From a virus (lineage: Duplodnaviria > Heunggongvirae > Uroviricota > Caudoviricetes): a stretch of DNA of 21,121 nt. The notes under the pieces are model-generated. The model was not told the DNA's origin. It searched no databases and saw nothing but the letters and a program-made list of their open reading frames with translations. Numbering within the stretch: position 1 is the stretch's first letter; each line of letters starts with the position of its first letter. The position numbers were made by a program, and so were the translations under genes. This document shows positions 3,523-7,580 of this stretch, piece by piece. The stretch lies in the IMG/VR virus record IMGVR_UViG_2690316318_000022; one strand, 5' to 3'.

Positions 3523-3864
3523 TTACTCCTTAGAGCCACCAAACTTGTTACCGATTACTCGCATTGCAGCCCCACGAATAGCATCGACACCGATCAGCCC
3601 AACACCACCACCAATGGCAACAGAAAGAGATTTAGGCCATCCAACATACTCAAGAGCGGATGCAAAGGTCAGCGTCAGAGCACCACAGAGCAAAATCTCA
3701 AGCGTTTTTCGTTTCCAGCCGCCGCCACCGCCAAAATAGGCAATGCGCAAGCCAGCCATAACAATTGACATAACCACTGCGCCCAACGGCGTATCTCCAC
3801 GCCACCAACTTTGTAAGAGTTCCAGTAAGTCAGGCCAGGAATGAGGAGCATTGTGCATTTTCAT
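3523..3864 (-). CDS. Holin, three predicted TMDs, probable dual-start (MKM) motif; the track ORF extends to 3882
   Basis: Three hydrophobic segments (LGAVVMSIVMAGLRIAYFG, LEILLCGALTLTFASALEYVGW, LSVAIGGGVGLIGVDAI) and a charged C-terminus, directly upstream of the endolysin. A strong SD GGAGGTGGGA lies 7 nt before the ATG at 3864, and a second in-frame Met follows two codons later. Confidence 0.7.
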   Translation of the reverse strand: MKMHNAPHSWPDLLELLQSWWRGDTPLGAVVMSIVMAGLRIAYFGGGGGWKRKTLEILLCGALTLTFASALEYVGWPKSLSVAIGGGVGLIGVDAIRGAAMRVIGNKFGGSKE

Positions 3865-3965
3865 ACTTCCCACCTCCGCCATTACGGGGTGTTGTTGAAA
3901 GGCGGGCCCTGCGTATACGCCCGTAGGATTGGGTTATGAGCCGTCCTTCGGTGGGCCCTGAATAC

Positions 3966-3988
3966 AAAAAAAGTTCGCCATAGCGAAC
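3966..3988 (-). terminator. Rho-independent terminator on the minus strand, upstream of the holin
   Basis: Minus-strand RNA would read GUUCGC-UAUG-GCGAAC followed by UUUUUUU (plus-strand A-run 3966-3972, stem 3973-3978 and 3983-3988). Confidence 0.6.
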
Positions 3989-4218
3989 CTTGTTAAATTT
4001 GTTAAAAAAGGAAGTTATTTAACATAATGTACGTTATAGGAACCACACGATCCCCGCTCGCAATAGATTTGCGATGAAAGGCCTATTTAATCAACTTAAG
4101 TGGTCCAGAATGACGAAATTCGAGTGAATAAAAGGTGCATAAAAAAGGGCAAAAACTGCATAGCGTTTTTTCGCGACGAAAACCCTGTTTTATTAACTTT
4201 TACTGAGAATAGAGCATT

Positions 4219-4242
4219 AAAAAAGGCCCCCTTGCGGGAGCC
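4219..4242 (-). terminator. Rho-independent terminator on the minus strand (tR'-like, late-promoter proximal)
   Basis: Minus-strand GGCUCCC-GCAA-GGGGGCC (7-bp GC-rich stem, one mismatch) followed by UUUUUU. Lies downstream of Q and the following ORF, upstream of the lysis genes. Confidence 0.6.
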
Positions 4243-4309
4243 TCTTCGTGATGAACTGTTTTCAACAGATATCAGGCTAATCGGCTTTTTGGAATTCCAC
4301 AACTATTTT

Positions 4310-4651
4310 TTATCTTACCTTGATGCCTGATGCCGTCAGATGTTTACGACAGTCCTGAATACCTTCGTTATAACCCGCATCGTAGAAGCTATCCGGCTTT
4401 GCCTTCAGCGCAGGAAGCGTAACGCTGGTAGCTCTTCGTTCGGCCAGAACACCTGCCTGAAAGAGTGTCCACATCAACTGAACTGCTGAATCACAGTAAG
4501 TAACATCTTCACTGTACAATTCTCGTTCAATCCTGATGCCAAGTTGAGCCTTCATTGATGCGCCAATATTACCTTTGACCTGCAACGACAGGTCTGGGTA
4601 CCTCTGTTCCATGAAGCTTTCAAATCTGTTGCGAACGCTGATCAGAGCCAT
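4310..4651 (-). CDS. Hypothetical protein (113 aa) between Q and the late terminators
   Basis: ORF with AGGGA SD-like 6 nt upstream of the ATG, 31 nt after the Q stop. No recognisable motifs. Confidence 0.5.
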   Translation of the reverse strand: MALISVRNRFESFMEQRYPDLSLQVKGNIGASMKAQLGIRIERELYSEDVTYCDSAVQLMWTLFQAGVLAERRATSVTLPALKAKPDSFYDAGYNEGIQDCRKHLTASGIKVR

Positions 4652-4682
4652 CTGGTTCCCTTACGTGATTGATTGCTGGATA

Positions 4683-5105
4683 TTATGCCGCCGAGCAGCT
4701 CCTACGCAAAGTCCTGATAGCCTGAGGCTTTGACTGAACCGACTGATCCATTTCGAGCACCACATCCAGCATGGCTAAGCAACCGTCAATAAATCCCTCT
4801 GCCGCCTGAAGCCTCTTCAGAACGTGGGTGTGAGATACGCCGAGCTTCTCACCCATCGCCCTCACGGGCATGGCCTGGACGTAATGCCACTCAAGGAGCG
4901 TGCACAGATACGGATCTTTTTTCTTCAGGCAGCTCATAGCGGAGTTGATGATAAGACCGTCATTGTCACTGCATTTCAGCCTTCCAGACTGCGTCGCGGG
5001 TAGCAGATTCTTAAACCCGGCTGCAACAGGAGGAAAGTAGACGCTACCACCTTCACTCGCTGCCCAGCCACCCCAGCGCTCTAAAACCTGTTGAATATTA
5101 CGCAT
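4683..5105 (-). CDS. Q: Late-gene antitermination protein Q (phage 82-type Q family)
   Basis: 140 aa. N-terminus MRNIQQVLERWGGWAA and the central DLL..Y....M.....G.KLG. pattern match the Q antiterminators of 82-like lambdoid prophages as I recall them. Position between the replication and lysis modules is canonical. Confidence 0.8.
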   Translation of the reverse strand: MRNIQQVLERWGGWAASEGGSVYFPPVAAGFKNLLPATQSGRLKCSDNDGLIINSAMSCLKKKDPYLCTLLEWHYVQAMPVRAMGEKLGVSHTHVLKRLQAAEGFIDGCLAMLDVVLEMDQSVQSKPQAIRTLRRSCSAA

Positions 5106-5169: not shown

Positions 5170-5425
5170 TGTGGATAACGCAGTTCCGATTCGCATATTG
5201 CATGTATCAACATGCAAAAAGTTGCTAATGCGGAGTGGAACCACCTGCCCCCACCTGGAACCACCTTTTCCTAACCTTTCCCTCAATCGACTTATATATA
5301 TATATGGGGTTTCTAGTAGAAAGGCGGTTCCAGTGGTTCCAGTGGTTCCGCCCCGCTTGCCACAAGGTCTGCAAGGTGGAACCTCCTTCTCTTTTAGGTG
5401 GTTCCGCGTGGTTCCAGCGGTTCCC
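5170..5425. promoter_or_regulatory. Putative origin of replication: DnaA box, 20-bp palindrome, iterons in both orientations, (TA)6 unwinding element
   Basis: Seen directly: TGTGGATAA (reverse complement of the TTATCCACA DnaA box) at 5170-5178; perfect palindrome TTGCATGT-ATCA-ACATGCAA at 5198-5217; TGGAACC at 5236 and 5256; alternating TA run at 5294-5305; GGTTCC at 5326, 5335 and 5344 (9-bp spacing), GGAACC at 5378, GGTTCC at 5400, 5410 and 5419. Sits at the 3' end of the primase-helicase gene. Confidence 0.65.
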
Positions 5426-7580
5426 AAACCTTGCATTTTTTCCCCCCAATTCGCCTTTGGGCACGCTTATACCCGCAATTTTGCAAAACATTACTAATTC
5501 GCATTTCTTCGCGTTTTCCGATGCGGTCAGGATTTAGCCCAATCGCATCACGCAAAACATCACTTGCGCGTAAAAATTCGCAATTTCGCGGAAGTTCATT
5601 AGTCATCAGGTCTGGCGTGTCGAGCCATTTCTCTACCGTTTCAAGCCAAGCATCCTTGATGGTGTACTGTTCATGGACACTCGCTGCCAGTTGTTCAGCC
5701 TCACGGAACTGGATACCCCCCAGACGCTGAAACACCTCACGAGCCTCAGCCCAAAGTAAAAGGAGATCTCTTTTTATCGCTTTCACGTCGACTTTCGACA
5801 CTTCCACGGGGAGCCAGCGACGGTTACCAGTCTTGTCCGCAAGGAATTCGTCCTCATTGGTGGTACCAACGAACACCAGGCGACGAGGAAACTGGGTGGC
5901 GAACTCCCGGTATTTCGGGATCCAGTTTTCGTGAGTACGCGTCACAAACGCTTTGATTGACTCCAGCTCTTTGGTATTAAGTCCGCGCAGTTCACCAATC
6001 TCTGCCACCAGCCGACCACGCATTTTTCGAGCGAGATCATCGTCTTTTTCGGCAAAAGAGATTTCAGTAAAAAACGCAGGATCAGGGCTCAGTGCCTCCA
6101 CTCCGGAAGACTTACCGCAGCCCTGCGGACCAACGAGGATCGGCACCATATCCGCTTTGATGCCTGGCTCCAGTACTCGCCCCGCCAACGCGGTCCACAT
6201 GTACATAGACACCGCACGGGTATAAGGCGTGTCGGCGGTACCGAAGTGCGTATGGTAGAAACATTCGATGCGCGGCACGCCATCCCACTCCAGTCCGTTC
6301 AGCCAGGTGATCGCTGAATCGAATGGTTGTTCATCGGCTGCAAGTAACACCACATCGCGAATAAGTTCACGACCAACAGGTTTAAATCCCCGCTTTTCCA
6401 TCGTGATGCGCAGGCGCGCATAATCCGCATCGGTGAAAGCCTGCCACTGGCCGGAGCCTGCCTGGGCGAACATGATTTCGTCACGGAACTGGTCAAAGCG
6501 AATATCGATGTCCACGAAGTCAGGACGCACAACGGCTTTTGCCGCGTTGCTGATGGTGGCCTCGATGCGGCCCCATTTGTCGCGCTCGAACGCCGGCAGC
6601 GGTAACGGCTCGGCCACTTCGGTGCTGGTCAGGTCTTCGAAATCGTCGTTGCGGATCCCGATGGCATTAAGGAAATCGCCGTCGTCGCGGTGCGCGCAGC
6701 TGGCGTGCAGGCACTTAAAATGCCCCTGCTCAAAGCCCGCGGTACCACCCGGGAAGTAAACTGTGCTGGTCGGGTCACCGCCAGTGCTGTGACCGTCTTC
6801 AAACGGGCAGCGGATGTAACGCTCTCCGTTCGCTCCGTCACGTAATGTCCAGCCGTTAGCATCCAGATAATCCGCTGTTTCATCCGTGGCGCCAGGCGTG
6901 AACGTTGAGCGATCGCGCATCTTAGTGCTACCAGCTTCAATGGTTACCGACACAGGGAGTTGTTCAGCCAGGCGCTGCCACAGCGTTTCAAGCTGCTCAC
7001 CAGTAATAGCCGGAGGTTCATCCGGCAAACCGCCGTCCCATTCAATACGCGCGCCGCTGCTGTGCGTACCACAGGCAACGAACTGCTGCCCGTTCGCCAG
7101 CAACTCGATAATGCCCATATCCCCCGCCAGGCGATGGATACGCTTACGGAAATCGCCATCAACAGCCAGCAGGTACAGGCATTTGTTACTGTTGGCGCGC
7201 CAGCGACGCGGTGGCAGCTCGCCAAGCAACTGCACCAGCGTTTTGCGAATATCGGCTTGGATGTCTTCGTCTTCGCTGTCACAGTCCAGCGCCAGCCAGC
7301 CATGGCCTGTACGCACGCAGATCCCATAGTCCGGTTCGTTCGACCAGCGGGCAAAATCATGCTCAGTTACGACGTGCCCAGTCCAGTCGTTAATTCCGGT
7401 AGCCAGACGGTTGCGGTTATACAGGCTCGGCGTTTTGCCAAGCACTTTGAGTTTGCTGTTCGGTGAAATAATCGCGCCCGGATTGCACACGACCGGTAGC
7501 AGCTGGTCCGTACGACCCAGCACCAGGTCGAAGTGGAACCATTCGTCAGGCGTCGCCCCCCACGGTTTGCTATCAGACAT
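5394..7580 (-). CDS. Replication initiator: AEP-type primase/polymerase N-terminal domain fused to an SF3 (D5/P4 alpha-like) helicase
   Basis: 728 aa. Acidic DxD-type motif LALDCDSEDED in the N-terminal region; Cys/His cluster CPFEDGH...HFKCLHASCAH; Walker A VGPQGCGKSS and a Walker B-like acidic stretch in the C-terminal half. Translationally coupled to cro and followed by the iteron array. Confidence 0.8.
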   Translation of the reverse strand: MSDSKPWGATPDEWFHFDLVLGRTDQLLPVVCNPGAIISPNSKLKVLGKTPSLYNRNRLATGINDWTGHVVTEHDFARWSNEPDYGICVRTGHGWLALDCDSEDEDIQADIRKTLVQLLGELPPRRWRANSNKCLYLLAVDGDFRKRIHRLAGDMGIIELLANGQQFVACGTHSSGARIEWDGGLPDEPPAITGEQLETLWQRLAEQLPVSVTIEAGSTKMRDRSTFTPGATDETADYLDANGWTLRDGANGERYIRCPFEDGHSTGGDPTSTVYFPGGTAGFEQGHFKCLHASCAHRDDGDFLNAIGIRNDDFEDLTSTEVAEPLPLPAFERDKWGRIEATISNAAKAVVRPDFVDIDIRFDQFRDEIMFAQAGSGQWQAFTDADYARLRITMEKRGFKPVGRELIRDVVLLAADEQPFDSAITWLNGLEWDGVPRIECFYHTHFGTADTPYTRAVSMYMWTALAGRVLEPGIKADMVPILVGPQGCGKSSGVEALSPDPAFFTEISFAEKDDDLARKMRGRLVAEIGELRGLNTKELESIKAFVTRTHENWIPKYREFATQFPRRLVFVGTTNEDEFLADKTGNRRWLPVEVSKVDVKAIKRDLLLLWAEAREVFQRLGGIQFREAEQLAASVHEQYTIKDAWLETVEKWLDTPDLMTNELPRNCEFLRASDVLRDAIGLNPDRIGKREEMRISNVLQNCGYKRAQRRIGGKKCKVWEPLEPRGTT

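What the first reader, a model, noticed from the sequence alone, without database searches (positions are those of the whole stretch)
3883..4682. Late regulatory region: extra ORF after Q, two minus-strand terminators and a GC-rich palindromic element before the holin
Q is followed by a 113-aa ORF (4310..4651), then a terminator at 4219-4242, a second terminator at 3966-3988, and a GGGCCC...GCGTATACGC...GGGCCC element (3904-3958) just upstream of the holin SD. Two sequential intrinsic terminators fit Q-dependent control of lysis genes. The extra ORF and the palindromic element are not explained by the standard PR'-qut-tR' layout, and I could not place the late promoter with confidence.
Basis: partly seen in the sequence, partly recalled or inferred. 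Interest (0 to 1): 0.45.

Follow-up and report, generated by a model that had tools for sequence, protein, structure and literature searches.

The report
Phage late-gene switch with tRNA-like RNA
This is the late-gene (lysis) control region of an E. coli prophage, ordinary in outline, but its "GC-rich palindrome" belongs to a widespread, unannotated folded RNA that copies the anticodon arm of the cell's initiator tRNA and whose function is unknown.

Summary

**Ordinary parts**
- The region is a Q21/933W-family late control cassette on the minus strand.
- Q (PF06530) is followed by ORF113, a PF26207 "phiTE_015" protein. This protein recurs directly after Q21-type Q genes in distant prophages and is dispensable: it is deleted in phage vB_EcoM-689R2.
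- The late promoter most likely lies just after ORF113: TTGTGG-17-TAGCCT, with a candidate Q-binding site GGAATTCC|AAAAAGCC and a start near 4267.
- Terminator T1 follows at about +25 and T2 at about +300, as in Stx phages.
- A hairpin that covers the ribosome-binding site and an MKM dual start precede a lambda-type holin.

**Unexpected part**
- The element at 3958-3904 is a three-way-junction RNA.
- My covariance model finds it, always on the sense strand, in 59 phage loci. These fall into 55 distinct sequence clusters.
- Its helices covary: 12 pairs carry changes on both sides, and 0 of 500 shuffles reach the observed values.
- It occupies two fixed positions: after the terminator that follows Q of all three Q families, just before the holin, and in the early-left operon of SfV-like phages.
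- In most members the invariant hairpin is the exact 14-mer CGGGCUCAUAACCC of E. coli initiator tRNA; the window copy keeps 12 of those bases.
- It matches no Rfam family, tRNA model or known put RNA by sequence.

Its mechanism is inferred, not shown.

The parts
4683..5105 (-). Antiterminator Q, Q21/933W family (140 aa)
   Evidence: PF06530 at E = 5e-42. PF06530 is the Q21 family (PMC9388147). It is 42-46% identical to Stx-phage Q proteins and 66% identical to a Rahnella prophage Q, with a near-identical C-terminal DNA-binding half.
4310..4651 (-). ORF113, PF26207 'Phage_phiTE_015' family protein of unknown function. It is a conserved partner gene of Q21-type Q.
   Evidence: ORF. The homologues carry PF26207 and have conserved motifs VQLMW and YDAGYNEGI. 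The gene lies 15-20 nt after a PF06530 Q gene in Rahnella (L292) and in a metagenome contig (L293). It is deleted in phage vB_EcoM-689R2. It is present in 66 E. coli genomes, while 137 carry the downstream RNA element. The AlphaFold model has pLDDT 72.7 and no fold match.
4274..4302 (-). Best candidate for the late promoter PR'. The -35 is TTGTGG (4302-4297) and the -10 is TAGCCT (4279-4274). The candidate Q-binding element is two tandem 8-mers, GGAATTCC and AAAAAGCC (4298-4283). The inferred start is near 4267.
   Evidence: PWM score 6.5. The 17-mer TTGTGGAATTCCAAAAA is identical after the phiTE_015 gene in L292 and L293. There it is followed at a 17-nt spacing by TAATCT-gt-TAAGAGTGGTTAC, the motif at the mapped Stx-phage PR' start. 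The geometry matches the phage 21 and phage L Q-binding sites: two tandem 8-mers ending about 15 nt before the start (PMC8022706). The region is retained in the ORF113 deletion variant. This placement is inferred, not mapped.
4219..4247 (-). Terminator T1, at about +21 to +49 of the inferred late start
   Evidence: -21.1 kcal/mol, z = -4.5. It aligns to the terminator portions of Rfam leader and sRNA models. The hairpin is conserved with different stem sequences in L192 and L189, where it lies 20-35 nt after the Q stop codon.
3992..4218 (-). Conserved leader between T1 and T2. Block A is 4201-4184. Block B is 4173-4121 and holds TTATGCA-type repeats spaced 21 and 11 nt apart. Block C is 4029-4016. 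Block D is 4009-3996. Blocks C and D form the hairpin TGTTAAA (4024-4018) / TTTAACA (4006-4000).
   Evidence: The blocks are conserved in L192, L189 and L188. Blocks B and C plus the terminator are also conserved in Yersinia phage YP3. The leader corresponds in position and length to the 258-nt Stx-phage PR'-tR' RNA that RNase E processes into the sRNA StxS. Its function here is not established.
3966..3991 (-). Terminator T2, the tR'-equivalent, at about +277 to +302
   Evidence: Found by the scan. -10.4 kcal/mol, z = -3.7. The position is conserved with compensatory stem changes in L192, L188, L189 and YP3.
3959..3965 (-). Single-stranded linker GUAUUCA between T2 and the RNA element. It contains an RNase E-type RN|WUU motif.
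   Evidence: Variants such as cgTATTCA, caTATTCA and cgTATTAA are conserved in most late-type members. GU|AUU is the RNase E cleavage motif mapped in the Stx-phage leader. Cleavage here has not been tested.
3904..3958 (-). P1 pairs 3958-3953 with 3909-3904. P2a pairs 3951-3949 with 3923-3921. P2b pairs 3947-3944 with 3928-3925. The apical hairpin is GG-CUCAUAA-CC at 3942-3932. P3 is 3920-3911.
   Evidence: The minimum-energy fold gives this architecture independently for the window, L128 and L068. Model R2 scores it 48.2 bits, E = 2.5e-7, and gives 59 sense-strand hits. Covariation: 82.7% of cells paired against 70.7% in shuffles, 12 pairs changed on both sides, 0 of 500 shuffles as high, and 27-54% when partners are slid. 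The core matches the E. coli initiator tRNA anticodon arm. There is no match in Rfam or ARAGORN.
3871..3900 (-). Hairpins resembling lambda's sdi. The inner stem 3891-3871 sequesters the SD GGAGG (3877-3873). The outer pairing joins UUUCAAC (3900-3894) to the first start-codon region.
   Evidence: Fold of -14 kcal/mol, z = -2.5. The same hairpin appears as a plus-strand hit. The motif CACCCCG...CGGAGGTG followed by ATGaagATG is conserved in the diverged loci L268 and L275.
3523..3864 (-). Lambda-family class I holin with an MKM dual start (ATG at 3864-3862 and at 3858-3856). The longest ORF starts at 3882, inside the hairpin loop.
   Evidence: TIGR01594 at 7e-40 and PF05106. RefSeq annotates the 342-nt version.

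Best explanation
The region is a Q21/933W-type late-gene switch followed by a conserved leader RNA.

**Proposed order of events (minus strand)**
1. Q and its partner gene ORF113 are transcribed from the early-right operon.
2. The constitutive late promoter lies just after ORF113, at 4302-4274, and carries a Q-binding site in its spacer.
3. Without Q, transcripts stop at T1 (about +25 to +50) or at T2 (about +300). This yields a short leader RNA like the StxS precursor of Stx phages.
4. With Q loaded, RNA polymerase reads through both terminators.
5. The polymerase then transcribes a 55-nt three-way-junction RNA, next a hairpin that hides the ribosome-binding site, and finally the dual-start holin.

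**The junction RNA**
It is a real, strand-specific, tRNA-derived structure. It has an acceptor-like stem followed by GCC, an arm ending in the initiator-tRNA anticodon loop, and a third hairpin.

I propose that it acts after transcription, and only on read-through transcripts. It would be a 5' processing and stabilising module that also helps set translation of the first downstream gene. An RNase E or RNase P cut at its 5' edge would separate the terminated-leader RNA from the late mRNA.

**Shown and inferred**
- Shown: the features themselves, the family, its structure, and its two conserved positions.
- Inferred: the promoter placement and every step of the RNA's function.
For: **Cassette**
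- Q is PF06530.
- A lambda-type holin, an endolysin, Rz/Rz1 and terminase genes follow.

**Promoter placement**
- The identical 17-mer TTGTGGAATTCCAAAAA follows the phiTE_015 gene in two distant cassettes.
- Their Q shares 66% identity with the window's Q.
- In those cassettes the 17-mer leads into the TAAGAGTGGTTAC motif. The Stx-phage late start was mapped in that motif.
- The spacing matches the phage 21 and phage L Q-binding sites.
- DNA next to Q changes with the Q allele, whereas the T1-T2 leader does not. L190 has a different Q but the same leader. L189 has the same Q as L190 but a different leader interior.

**Terminators**
-, with conservation shown.

**RNA element is real**
-.
- G:U pairs are common, for example U:G in 25 sequences at one P1 pair. 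The fold therefore exists only on the sense strand.

**Position is conserved**
- The element lies after a hairpin or terminator and before the holin.
- It lies downstream of Q of PF03589, PF06323, PF06530 and DUF1133 types.
- 27 of 29 early-type representatives have a T-run ending exactly 32 nt before the core.

**tRNA link**
- There is an exact 14-mer match to metZ.
- Real tRNA genes occupy the same spot in Stx phages and in phage L.
- A tRNA-Thr gene abuts the element in L280.

**Processing idea**
- The conserved GUAUU-type linker resembles the RNase E site mapped in the Stx leader.
- Most late-type copies have RCC after P1.

**Translation idea**
- Start contexts downstream pair with the CUCAUAA loop over at least 5 bp in 29 of 56 cases, against 387 of 1622 control starts.
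Against: **Promoter**
- No transcript ends were mapped.
- The proposed -10 (TAGCCT) is weak.
- A second candidate scores higher: CTGACG-16-TAAGAT at 4339-4312, with a perfect GGCATCA tandem in its spacer (7.6 against 6.5).
- No clear sigma-dependent pause element was found.

**Processing or stability role**
- A processing or stabilising role does not explain why about 20 nt of the anticodon-like arm never vary.
- Early-type members have a 16-17 bp P1 with no RCC tail, so an RNase P-type substrate fits only the late type.
- The window's own copy has GG/CC instead of GGG/CCC and a minimal P3.

**Start-codon complementarity**
- The enrichment rests on related sequences that are not independent.

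**Distribution**
- The element is absent from most Q21-family cassettes: 1 of 62 species-level loci, and absent from L292 and L293. It is therefore not required for Q function.
Confidence: 0.5

Rival explanations
1. The element is a cis-acting translational regulator. Its anticodon-like loop (CUCAUAA) pairs with the start-codon region of the first downstream gene. In members whose P3 loop reads CUCCUAA, that loop also pairs with the Shine-Dalgarno sequence. The RNA would thus imitate the two mRNA-reading parts of a 30S initiation complex in order to hide or present the ribosome-binding site.
For: - The loop is invariant and identical to the initiator anticodon loop.
- P3 loops CUCCUAA and UUCCUAA recur in many early-type members and in L068 and L089.
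- Downstream start contexts complementary over at least 5 bp: 52% against 24% of controls.
- The element always precedes the first gene of its operon.
Against: - The distance to the start codon varies from about 60 to 270 nt.
- The window's P3 loop is UAUA, and a separate hairpin already hides its SD.
- The complementarity is short (5-6 bp), and the sample is phylogenetically non-independent.
Confidence: 0.15
2. The element is a decoy or sensor that mimics the initiator-tRNA anticodon arm. It would bind a host factor that recognises that arm, for example the VapC/MvpT toxins of Shigella and Salmonella that cut tRNA-fMet in the anticodon loop, or else MetRS, IF3 or the 30S P site. It is made only in lytic growth because it lies behind terminators.
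For: - The exact 14-mer CGGGCUCAUAACCC includes the three G:C pairs that mark initiator tRNA.
- It is invariant across contexts whose flanks have diverged completely.
- Hosts of carrier phages include Shigella, Salmonella and E. coli.
- Enteric VapC toxins cleave tRNA-fMet, and all tested VapCs cut anticodon-stem-loop-like structures (PMC7180214).
Against: - No binding or cleavage data exist.
- The element is embedded in an mRNA leader at one or two copies per phage, which is an odd design for a sponge.
- The window copy has only two of the three G:C pairs.
- The fixed position directly upstream of the first gene argues for a cis role.
Confidence: 0.12
3. The element is a put-like antiterminator RNA. 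It would bind the transcribing RNA polymerase and make it resistant to downstream terminators, as HK022 put does.
For: - It has two arms held in a junction, with invariant nucleotides, as expected for an RNA that binds a conserved host machine.
- The early-type copy lies in the early-left operon of phages with no N gene at the usual place (L128).
- Phage LLS, which is reported to lack N and is suspected of RNA-mediated antitermination (PMC12315714), carries the element.
Against: - There is no sequence or model similarity to HK022 put or the HK639 putL-like RNA.
- It lies downstream, not upstream, of the promoter-proximal terminator.
- There is only one copy in loci that span both early operons, whereas HK022 needs putL and putR.
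- The late-type copy lies behind Q, which already supplies antitermination.
Confidence: 0.1
4. The element is a decaying tRNA pseudogene, or a DNA-level palindrome such as an operator, recombination site or REP-like repeat, with no RNA function.
For: - tRNA genes are common at this position in lambdoid phages.
- The hexamer GGGCCC occurs twice, and GCGTATACGC is a perfect DNA palindrome.
Against: - Helices are kept by compensatory changes and G:U pairs on one strand only.
- A core of about 20 nt stays invariant while the flanks diverge fully, and it recurs in a second operon context.
- The outer GGGCCC repeat becomes GGGCUC/GAGCCC or GGCCC/GGGCC in relatives. These keep the RNA pairing but lose the repeat of an identical hexamer.
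- No cloverleaf is detectable.
Confidence: 0.05

Closest known systems
Late control cassette of phage 21, phage L and Stx phages (Q21/933W family): Q, PR' with a tandem-8-mer Q-binding site, a leader RNA (StxS precursor), and tR'
   Same: - The Q family is the same (PF06530).
- The promoter abuts the end of the upstream gene.
- A candidate tandem 8-mer site ends about 15 nt before the start.
- A first hairpin lies at about +25 and a second terminator 250-300 nt downstream.
- Lysis genes lie behind the terminators.
   Different: - A PF26207 gene sits between Q and the promoter.
- The leader sequence is unrelated to StxS.
- The -10 is weak.
- Instead of the tRNA genes found after tR' in Stx phages and phage L, there is a tRNA-like junction RNA.
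Phage-encoded tRNA genes just downstream of tR' (ileZ-argN-argO in Stx phages; Asn and Leu tRNAs in phage L), and E. coli initiator tRNA
   Same: - The genomic position is the same.
- There is an acceptor-like closing stem followed by GCC.
- The anticodon loop is CUCAUAA.
- GGG-type members share the exact 14-mer CGGGCUCAUAACCC with metZ.
   Different: - There is no D arm and no T-loop.
- The anticodon arm is irregular and extended.
- The closing stem has 5-6 bp in the late type and 16-17 bp in the early type.
- ARAGORN does not call it, even in D-armless modes, and the Rfam tRNA model does not match it.
Lambda S gene translational control (dual start Met1/Met3 with the upstream sdi stem-loop)
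   Same: A lambda-family holin, an MKM dual start, and a stem-loop covering the SD and the first start codon.
   Different: The sequence is not homologous to lambda's sdi. An extra conserved RNA domain lies 13 nt further upstream.
HK022 put and HK639 putL-like antiterminator RNAs
   Same: These are also folded, factor-independent phage leader RNAs in antiterminated operons, with invariant nucleotides.
   Different: - There is no sequence or model match.
- The element has a closing stem and three helices.
- It lies after, not before, the first terminator.
- It also occurs in Q-controlled late operons.
The thrS operator and other tRNA-anticodon-arm mimics in mRNA leaders
   Same: An anticodon stem-loop look-alike placed in the 5' leader of a regulated gene.
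   Different: This comparison rests on my own knowledge and was not tested here. No cognate synthetase gene lies downstream, and the element is 45 nt or more from the SD.

Membership tests
Q21/933W-family Q-dependent late antitermination cassette | Q protein of Pfam PF06530 | tested here: met
   E = 5e-42, full-length match. The family assignment comes from PMC9388147.
Q21/933W-family Q-dependent late antitermination cassette | Constitutive promoter next to the Q region, with a Q-binding element of two tandem 8-bp subsites upstream of the start | tested here: inconclusive
   The candidate is TTGTGG-17-TAGCCT with GGAATTCC|AAAAAGCC (4302-4274). It is supported by a 17-mer conserved in L292 and L293 and by the spacing rule from phage L. 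A rival candidate lies at 4339-4312. No mapping data exist.
Q21/933W-family Q-dependent late antitermination cassette | Sigma-dependent promoter-proximal pause element (-10-like, within about +1 to +25) | tested here: inconclusive
   Only a weak candidate was seen by eye (AACAGT at about +9 to +14). It is not conserved enough to call.
Q21/933W-family Q-dependent late antitermination cassette | Intrinsic terminator(s) between the promoter and the late genes, with lysis genes downstream | tested here: met
   T1 and T2, followed by the holin, endolysin and Rz/Rz1 genes.
Q21/933W-family Q-dependent late antitermination cassette | Q-dependent read-through of the terminators | not testable with these tools
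   This needs in vitro transcription or reporter assays with and without Q.
tRNA | Cloverleaf with D arm, T arm and T-loop, detectable by tRNA models | tested here: not met
   ARAGORN finds nothing in standard, mitochondrial or relaxed modes. The Rfam tRNA model gives no hit at E up to 10.
tRNA | Anticodon stem-loop with a 7-nt loop | tested here: met
   GG(G)-CUCAUAA-(C)CC. There is an exact 14-mer match to metZ in GGG-type members and a 12-mer match in the window.
HK022-type put antiterminator RNA | Sequence or structure similarity to putL, putR or the HK639 putL-like RNA | tested here: not met
   No motif or covariance-model hit in HK022 or HK639. The annotated HK639 putL-like sequence is unrelated.
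HK022-type put antiterminator RNA | Location between the promoter and the first terminator of both early operons | tested here: not met
   The element follows a hairpin with a T-run. There is a single early copy per locus.
HK022-type put antiterminator RNA | Terminator read-through that depends on the RNA polymerase beta-prime zinc-binding domain | not testable with these tools
   This needs genetics or biochemistry.
Any Rfam 15 family | Match to a curated covariance model | tested here: not met
   Nothing overlaps the element at E up to 10 in the window. The only overlapping hits on the sense strand in L128 are far below gathering scores and to unrelated families. Nothing overlaps it on the sense strand in L068. 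There are no gathering-level hits in 8 loci.
Lambda-type holin control (dual start plus sdi) | Lambda-family holin with two in-frame starts (MKM) and an upstream stem-loop covering the SD | tested here: met
   TIGR01594 at 7e-40. ATG codons at 3864 and 3858. Hairpin 3891-3871. The effect on the ratio of the two products was not tested.
Pfam PF26207 (Phage_phiTE_015), for ORF113 | Profile match to the family | tested here: met
   All 14 homologues carry precomputed PF26207, and RefSeq names the identical protein 'phiTE_015 family'. My local Pfam copy gave no hit, presumably because the model is newer.

The most novel reading that the evidence does not exclude
The junction RNA may be a new class of phage leader RNA that works by molecular mimicry of the initiator tRNA anticodon arm. 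In many members it would also mimic a CCU/anti-Shine-Dalgarno-like loop.

Two readings fit the evidence. It could dock in cis on the start codon and ribosome-binding site of the first lytic gene. Or it could capture a host factor that reads the initiator anticodon arm, such as a VapC-type toxin, the 30S P site with IF3, or MetRS. In either case, early-left and late gene expression would be coupled to the state of the host's translation-initiation machinery.
Probability: 0.25. Interest if true: 0.85.

Novelty: new variant of a known kind. Interest (0 to 1): 0.62.

Why it matters
**The RNA element**
- This RNA lies in the leader of the lysis genes, and in SfV-like phages in the leader of the early-left genes. 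It is present in many temperate phages of E. coli, Shigella and Salmonella, including Stx2c-converting phages, SfV, SfIV, ST64B, cdtI phage and mEp460.
- The window's version alone is present in 137 of 5426 complete E. coli genomes. It is annotated in none of the listed records.
- It is found behind all three Q families. It may therefore be a general, previously unnoticed layer of control between antitermination and lysis.
- A functional copy of the initiator-tRNA anticodon arm in an mRNA leader would be a new regulatory principle in bacteria. It is easy to test, because identical prophages sit in standard strains such as ETEC H10407 and O103:H2 12009.

**The Q partner gene**
- The Q and PF26207 gene pair is conserved. 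This suggests an unstudied partner of Q21-type antiterminators.

Tried and rejected
**Searches that found nothing**
- ARAGORN on the window, and on element sequences in permissive modes, gave no tRNA.
- Rfam at E up to 10 on the window, L128 and L068 gave only chance-level hits.
- Text searches for the core sequence found nothing. King 2011 on the new put RNAs could not be read.
- The HK022 and HK639 genomes hold no copy of the motif. The HK639 'M3-like RNA' is unrelated.
- E. coli K-12 CPS-53, which has yfdP/yfdQ homologues of the early-type neighbours, lacks the element.
- For ORF113, the Pfam, NCBIfam and PADLOC scans were empty. PHROG hits carry no useful function. The AlphaFold model had only moderate confidence, and Foldseek against the PDB found nothing.
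- Fetching ST64T to read the phage L Q-binding site failed because the record is numbered differently.

**Ideas I considered and set aside**
- Placing PR' at the Q stop codon (TTGCGT-16/18-CATAAT/TAATAT, score 7.0), with ATCCAGCA/ATCAATCA as the Q-binding site. I dropped this after finding that Q and phiTE_015 form a conserved gene pair with the conserved 17-mer after it.
- Placing PR' in the T1-T2 leader (blocks B and C). I rejected this because the leader does not change with the Q allele.
- Reading block C/D as a plus-strand promoter (TTGTTA-18-CATAAT). It is equally well explained as the two arms of a conserved RNA hairpin, so I left it open.

**Technical note**
- The first covariance model (R1) produced reverse-strand hits because of the long P1 helix. 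I replaced it with R2.
Full report
**1. Observation check**

- The 113-aa ORF is at 4310-4651.
- T1 has a GC stem at 4242-4225 and six U at 4224-4219. It folds at -21.1 kcal/mol with z = -4.5.
- T2 has its stem at 3991-3970 and U-tract to 3966. The scan finds it and it folds at -10.4 kcal/mol, z = -3.7.
- The GGGCCC...GCGTATACGC...GGGCCC stretch is at 3958-3904.

The number of terminator-like sites is not above shuffle expectation. The case for function rests on conservation. Diverged relatives (L192, L188, L189) keep hairpins at both positions with different stem sequences.

**2. Context**

The window is an E. coli prophage.
- 72 complete genomes carry the whole Q-to-endolysin stretch, the listed ones at 99.2-99.4% identity. 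They include ETEC H10407 and O103:H2 12009.
- The order on the minus strand is:
  - VapE-type primase;
  - an iteron-rich gap;
  - Q;
  - ORF113;
  - the region in question;
  - holin;
  - endolysin;
  - Rz/Rz1;
  - small and large terminase.
- Q is PF06530. This is the Q21 family (PMC9388147). It is 42-46% identical to Stx-phage Q proteins.

**3. ORF113**

- It is a real, conserved gene: 14 homologues, all PF26207, with invariant VQLMW and YDAGYNEGI motifs.
- In a Rahnella prophage and in a metagenome contig, the 45-48% identical homologue lies 15-20 nt after a PF06530 Q gene and ahead of the lysis genes. Q plus PF26207 is therefore a recurring gene pair, not a chance insertion.
- It is dispensable. 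Phage vB_EcoM-689R2 has lost all but the start region and the last 57 nt. Relatives with other Q alleles (L189, L190, L192) lack it entirely.
- It is in 66 E. coli genomes, while 137 carry the downstream RNA element.
- Its function remains unknown. There were no informative profile hits, and a three-helix model of moderate confidence has no fold match.

**4. Where the late promoter is**

Three lines of evidence point to 4302-4274, just after ORF113.
- **A conserved 17-mer.**
  - TTGTGGAATTCCAAAAA is identical after the PF26207 gene in L292 and L293.
  - Their Q is 66% identical overall to the window's, and nearly identical in the C-terminal DNA-binding half.
  - In those loci the 17-mer supplies a -35. 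It is followed at 17 nt by TAATCT and then TAAGAGTGGTTAC.
  - The same motif lies at the late start of an Stx2a phage. The published start is 258 nt before the tR' 3' end (PMC7547250), which falls on A1957 of L289.
- **Geometry.**
  - In phages 21 and L, the Q-binding site is two tandem 8-mers ending about 15 nt before the start (PMC8022706).
  - Here GGAATTCC|AAAAAGCC (4298-4283) ends 16 nt before the start predicted from the -10 TAGCCT.
- **Linkage to the Q allele.**
  - DNA next to Q changes with the Q allele, whereas the T1-T2 leader does not.
  - L190 has a different Q but the same leader. L189 has the same Q as L190 but a different leader interior.

The ORF113 deletion variant keeps this promoter block.

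A rival promoter scores slightly higher and cannot be excluded. It is CTGACG-16-TAAGAT at 4339-4312, with a perfect GGCATCA tandem in its spacer.

All of this is inference. No transcript ends were mapped.

**5. Terminators and leader**

- With a start near 4267, T1 lies at about +21 to +49 and T2 ends at about +302.
- The Stx2a phage shows the same plan: a hairpin with a T-tract at about +25 to +51 and tR' at +258.
- Between T1 and T2 lie blocks conserved in L192, L189 and L188. Blocks B and C plus the terminator are also conserved in Yersinia phage YP3, which has no Q gene beside them.
- Blocks C and D form a 7-bp hairpin just before T2. The plus-strand promoter-like hit TTGTTA-18-CATAAT is made of the same two arms, so I cannot tell the two readings apart.
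- By analogy with StxS, the leader may yield a small RNA. This was not tested.

**6. The GC-rich element is a member of a widespread RNA family**

- **Discovery.**
  - A 17-nt match to a Pantoea prophage (L057) led to scans of IMG/VR.
  - These returned more than 120, 93 and 15 loci for three core patterns.
  - After clustering at 90%, 55 representatives are true elements.
- **Architecture.**
  - A closing stem P1 is followed by a single A.
  - A long irregular arm (P2a, P2b) ends in GG(G)-CUCAUAA-(C)CC.
  - A variable hairpin P3 and a second single A lead back to P1.
  - Minimum-energy folding recovers this independently for three very different members.
- **Model search.** A covariance model (R2) finds 59 hits, all on the sense strand, including the window at E = 2.5e-7.
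- **Covariation.**
  - On that alignment 82.7% of cells pair, against 70.7% in shuffles.
  - 12 of 21 pairs show changes on both sides (101 cells against 34).
  - No shuffle in 500 reaches any observed measure.
  - Sliding the partners drops pairing to 27-54%.
  - The alignment was fitted to the model, which favours the structure, but hand comparison shows the same swaps:
    - P1: GGGCCC:GGGCCC, GGGCUC:GAGCCC, GGCCC:GGGCC;
    - P2a: CCG:CGG, CUG:CAG, CUGUCUG:CGGGCAG, CUACCUG:CGGGUAG;
    - P2b: AGGA:UCCU, GCGA:UCGC.
- **Strand specificity.** Frequent G:U pairs mean the fold exists only on the transcribed strand.

**7. Two fixed positions**

- **Late type.**
  - The element follows a GC-rich hairpin, which carries a run of four or more T in at least 13 of 26 representatives, and a TATTCA-like linker.
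  - It precedes the holin by 50-270 nt.
  - It lies behind Q proteins of PF03589, PF06323, PF06530 and DUF1133 types, and ahead of several unrelated holin types.
- **Early type.**
  - In SfV, SfIV, mEp460, cdtI phage, ST64B, Stx2c phages and LLS (62 phage records), it lies after the repressor gene.
  - It follows a hairpin whose T-run ends exactly 32 nt before the core in 27 of 29 representatives.
  - It precedes the first early-left gene.
- One contig (L181) has both types.
- The element is not part of every Q cassette. Only 1 of 62 Q21-family loci from other species has it, and L292 and L293 lack it.

**8. Resemblance to tRNA**

- GGG-type members share the exact 14-mer CGGGCTCATAACCC with E. 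coli initiator tRNA metZ, that is, the anticodon arm with its three G:C pairs. The window copy shares 12 nt.
- Real tRNA genes occupy this position in Stx phages and in phage L. In L280 a tRNA-Thr gene abuts the element.
- Late-type P1 is usually followed by GCC or ACC.
- P3 loops often read CUCCUAA or UUCCUAA.
- It is nevertheless not a tRNA by any model, and no Rfam family matches it.

**9. Between the element and the holin**

- A hairpin at 3891-3871 buries the SD GGAGG.
- An outer pairing of UUUCAAC with the first AUG region is predicted.
- The holin is lambda-family with an MKM dual start.
- The hairpin sequence and the dual start recur in diverged loci (L268, L275).
- This resembles lambda's sdi control. 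That comparison comes from my own knowledge of lambda S.

**10. How it most likely works, and the rivals**

- **Shown:** the parts, the RNA's structure, and its conserved placement behind terminators. The placement means that only antiterminated polymerases transcribe it.
- **Inferred (my preferred reading):** a tRNA-derived 5' module of the lytic mRNAs. A cut in the conserved GUAUU-type linker, or at the base of P1, would free the leader RNA and leave a structured, protected 5' end. The module would also contribute to translation control of the first gene.
- **What this reading leaves unexplained:** the invariant anticodon-like arm.
- **The rivals address that gap:**
  - pairing with the start codon has weak support: 52% against 24% complementary start contexts, from non-independent data;
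  - a decoy or sensor for factors that read the initiator anticodon arm, such as enteric VapC toxins;
  - put-like action on RNA polymerase, which is disfavoured by position, by copy number and by the lack of similarity.
- **Largely excluded:** a silent pseudogene or a DNA palindrome, because of the strand-specific covariation.

**11. Verdict**

The cassette itself is an ordinary new member of the Q21/933W kind, with a conserved extra gene. The 'palindrome' is the interesting part. It is a candidate new RNA family with initiator-tRNA mimicry, common in medically relevant prophages, unannotated, and directly testable.

Noticed in passing
window 5230-5430: At least nine copies of GTGGTTCC(A/G), in both orientations, flank an (AT)7 tract between the VapE-type primase gene and Q. 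This looks like an iteron-type replication origin.
   Followed up: partly
window 4044-4037: One more copy of the iteron core GTGGTTCC lies inside the T1-T2 late leader. L192 has GTGGTGCC at the same place. Its meaning is unknown.
   Followed up: no
window 3999-4028 (+ strand): This is the only promoter-like hit of the scan: TTGTTA-18-CATAAT, pointing back toward ORF113 and Q. Both hexamers are conserved in L189, L190 and L192 while the spacer varies. It could drive an antisense RNA. The same bases also form the two arms of a conserved sense-strand hairpin.
   Followed up: partly
window 4173-4121; L003 2498-2550: A 53-bp block holds three TTATGCA/TTATTCA repeats spaced 21 and 11 nt apart. It is 87% identical in Yersinia phage YP3, where it lies ahead of structural genes with no Q gene beside it. 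It may be a protein-binding site or part of a mobile sRNA or promoter module.
   Followed up: partly
window 4339-4312: A perfect tandem GGCATCA GGCATCA lies in the spacer of a promoter-like site, CTGACG-16-TAAGAT, at the 3' end of ORF113. The repeat is imperfect in phage 689R2, whose Q differs by 11%. This is an alternative late promoter and Q-binding site.
   Followed up: partly
L152, L105, L171, L068, L089 (P3 loops): Many family members carry CUCCUAA or UUCCUAA in the P3 loop. This looks like a CCU anticodon loop or an anti-Shine-Dalgarno sequence. The P3 region of L068 aligns at 21 of 31 positions with the anticodon-arm region of the Stx-phage tRNA(CAU).
   Followed up: partly
L128 3213-3401 (- strand): C4 antisense RNA and IsrK (Rfam gathering-level hits) lie about 2.5 kb from the early-type element in an SfV-like prophage.
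   Followed up: no
window 3880-3882: The longest holin ORF (119 aa) starts at an ATG that sits in the loop of the SD-sequestering hairpin. RefSeq uses the ATG at 3864.
   Followed up: no
L280 783-858 and 864-932: A bona fide tRNA-Thr(TGT) gene is followed within a few nucleotides by the junction RNA and then a holin. This is a useful natural intermediate for the tRNA-origin idea.
   Followed up: partly
L289 1982-2008: In the Stx2a phage, a canonical-looking hairpin with seven T lies only about 25-51 nt after the mapped late start. The published 3' end is nevertheless at +258. The role of this first hairpin appears unaddressed.
   Followed up: no
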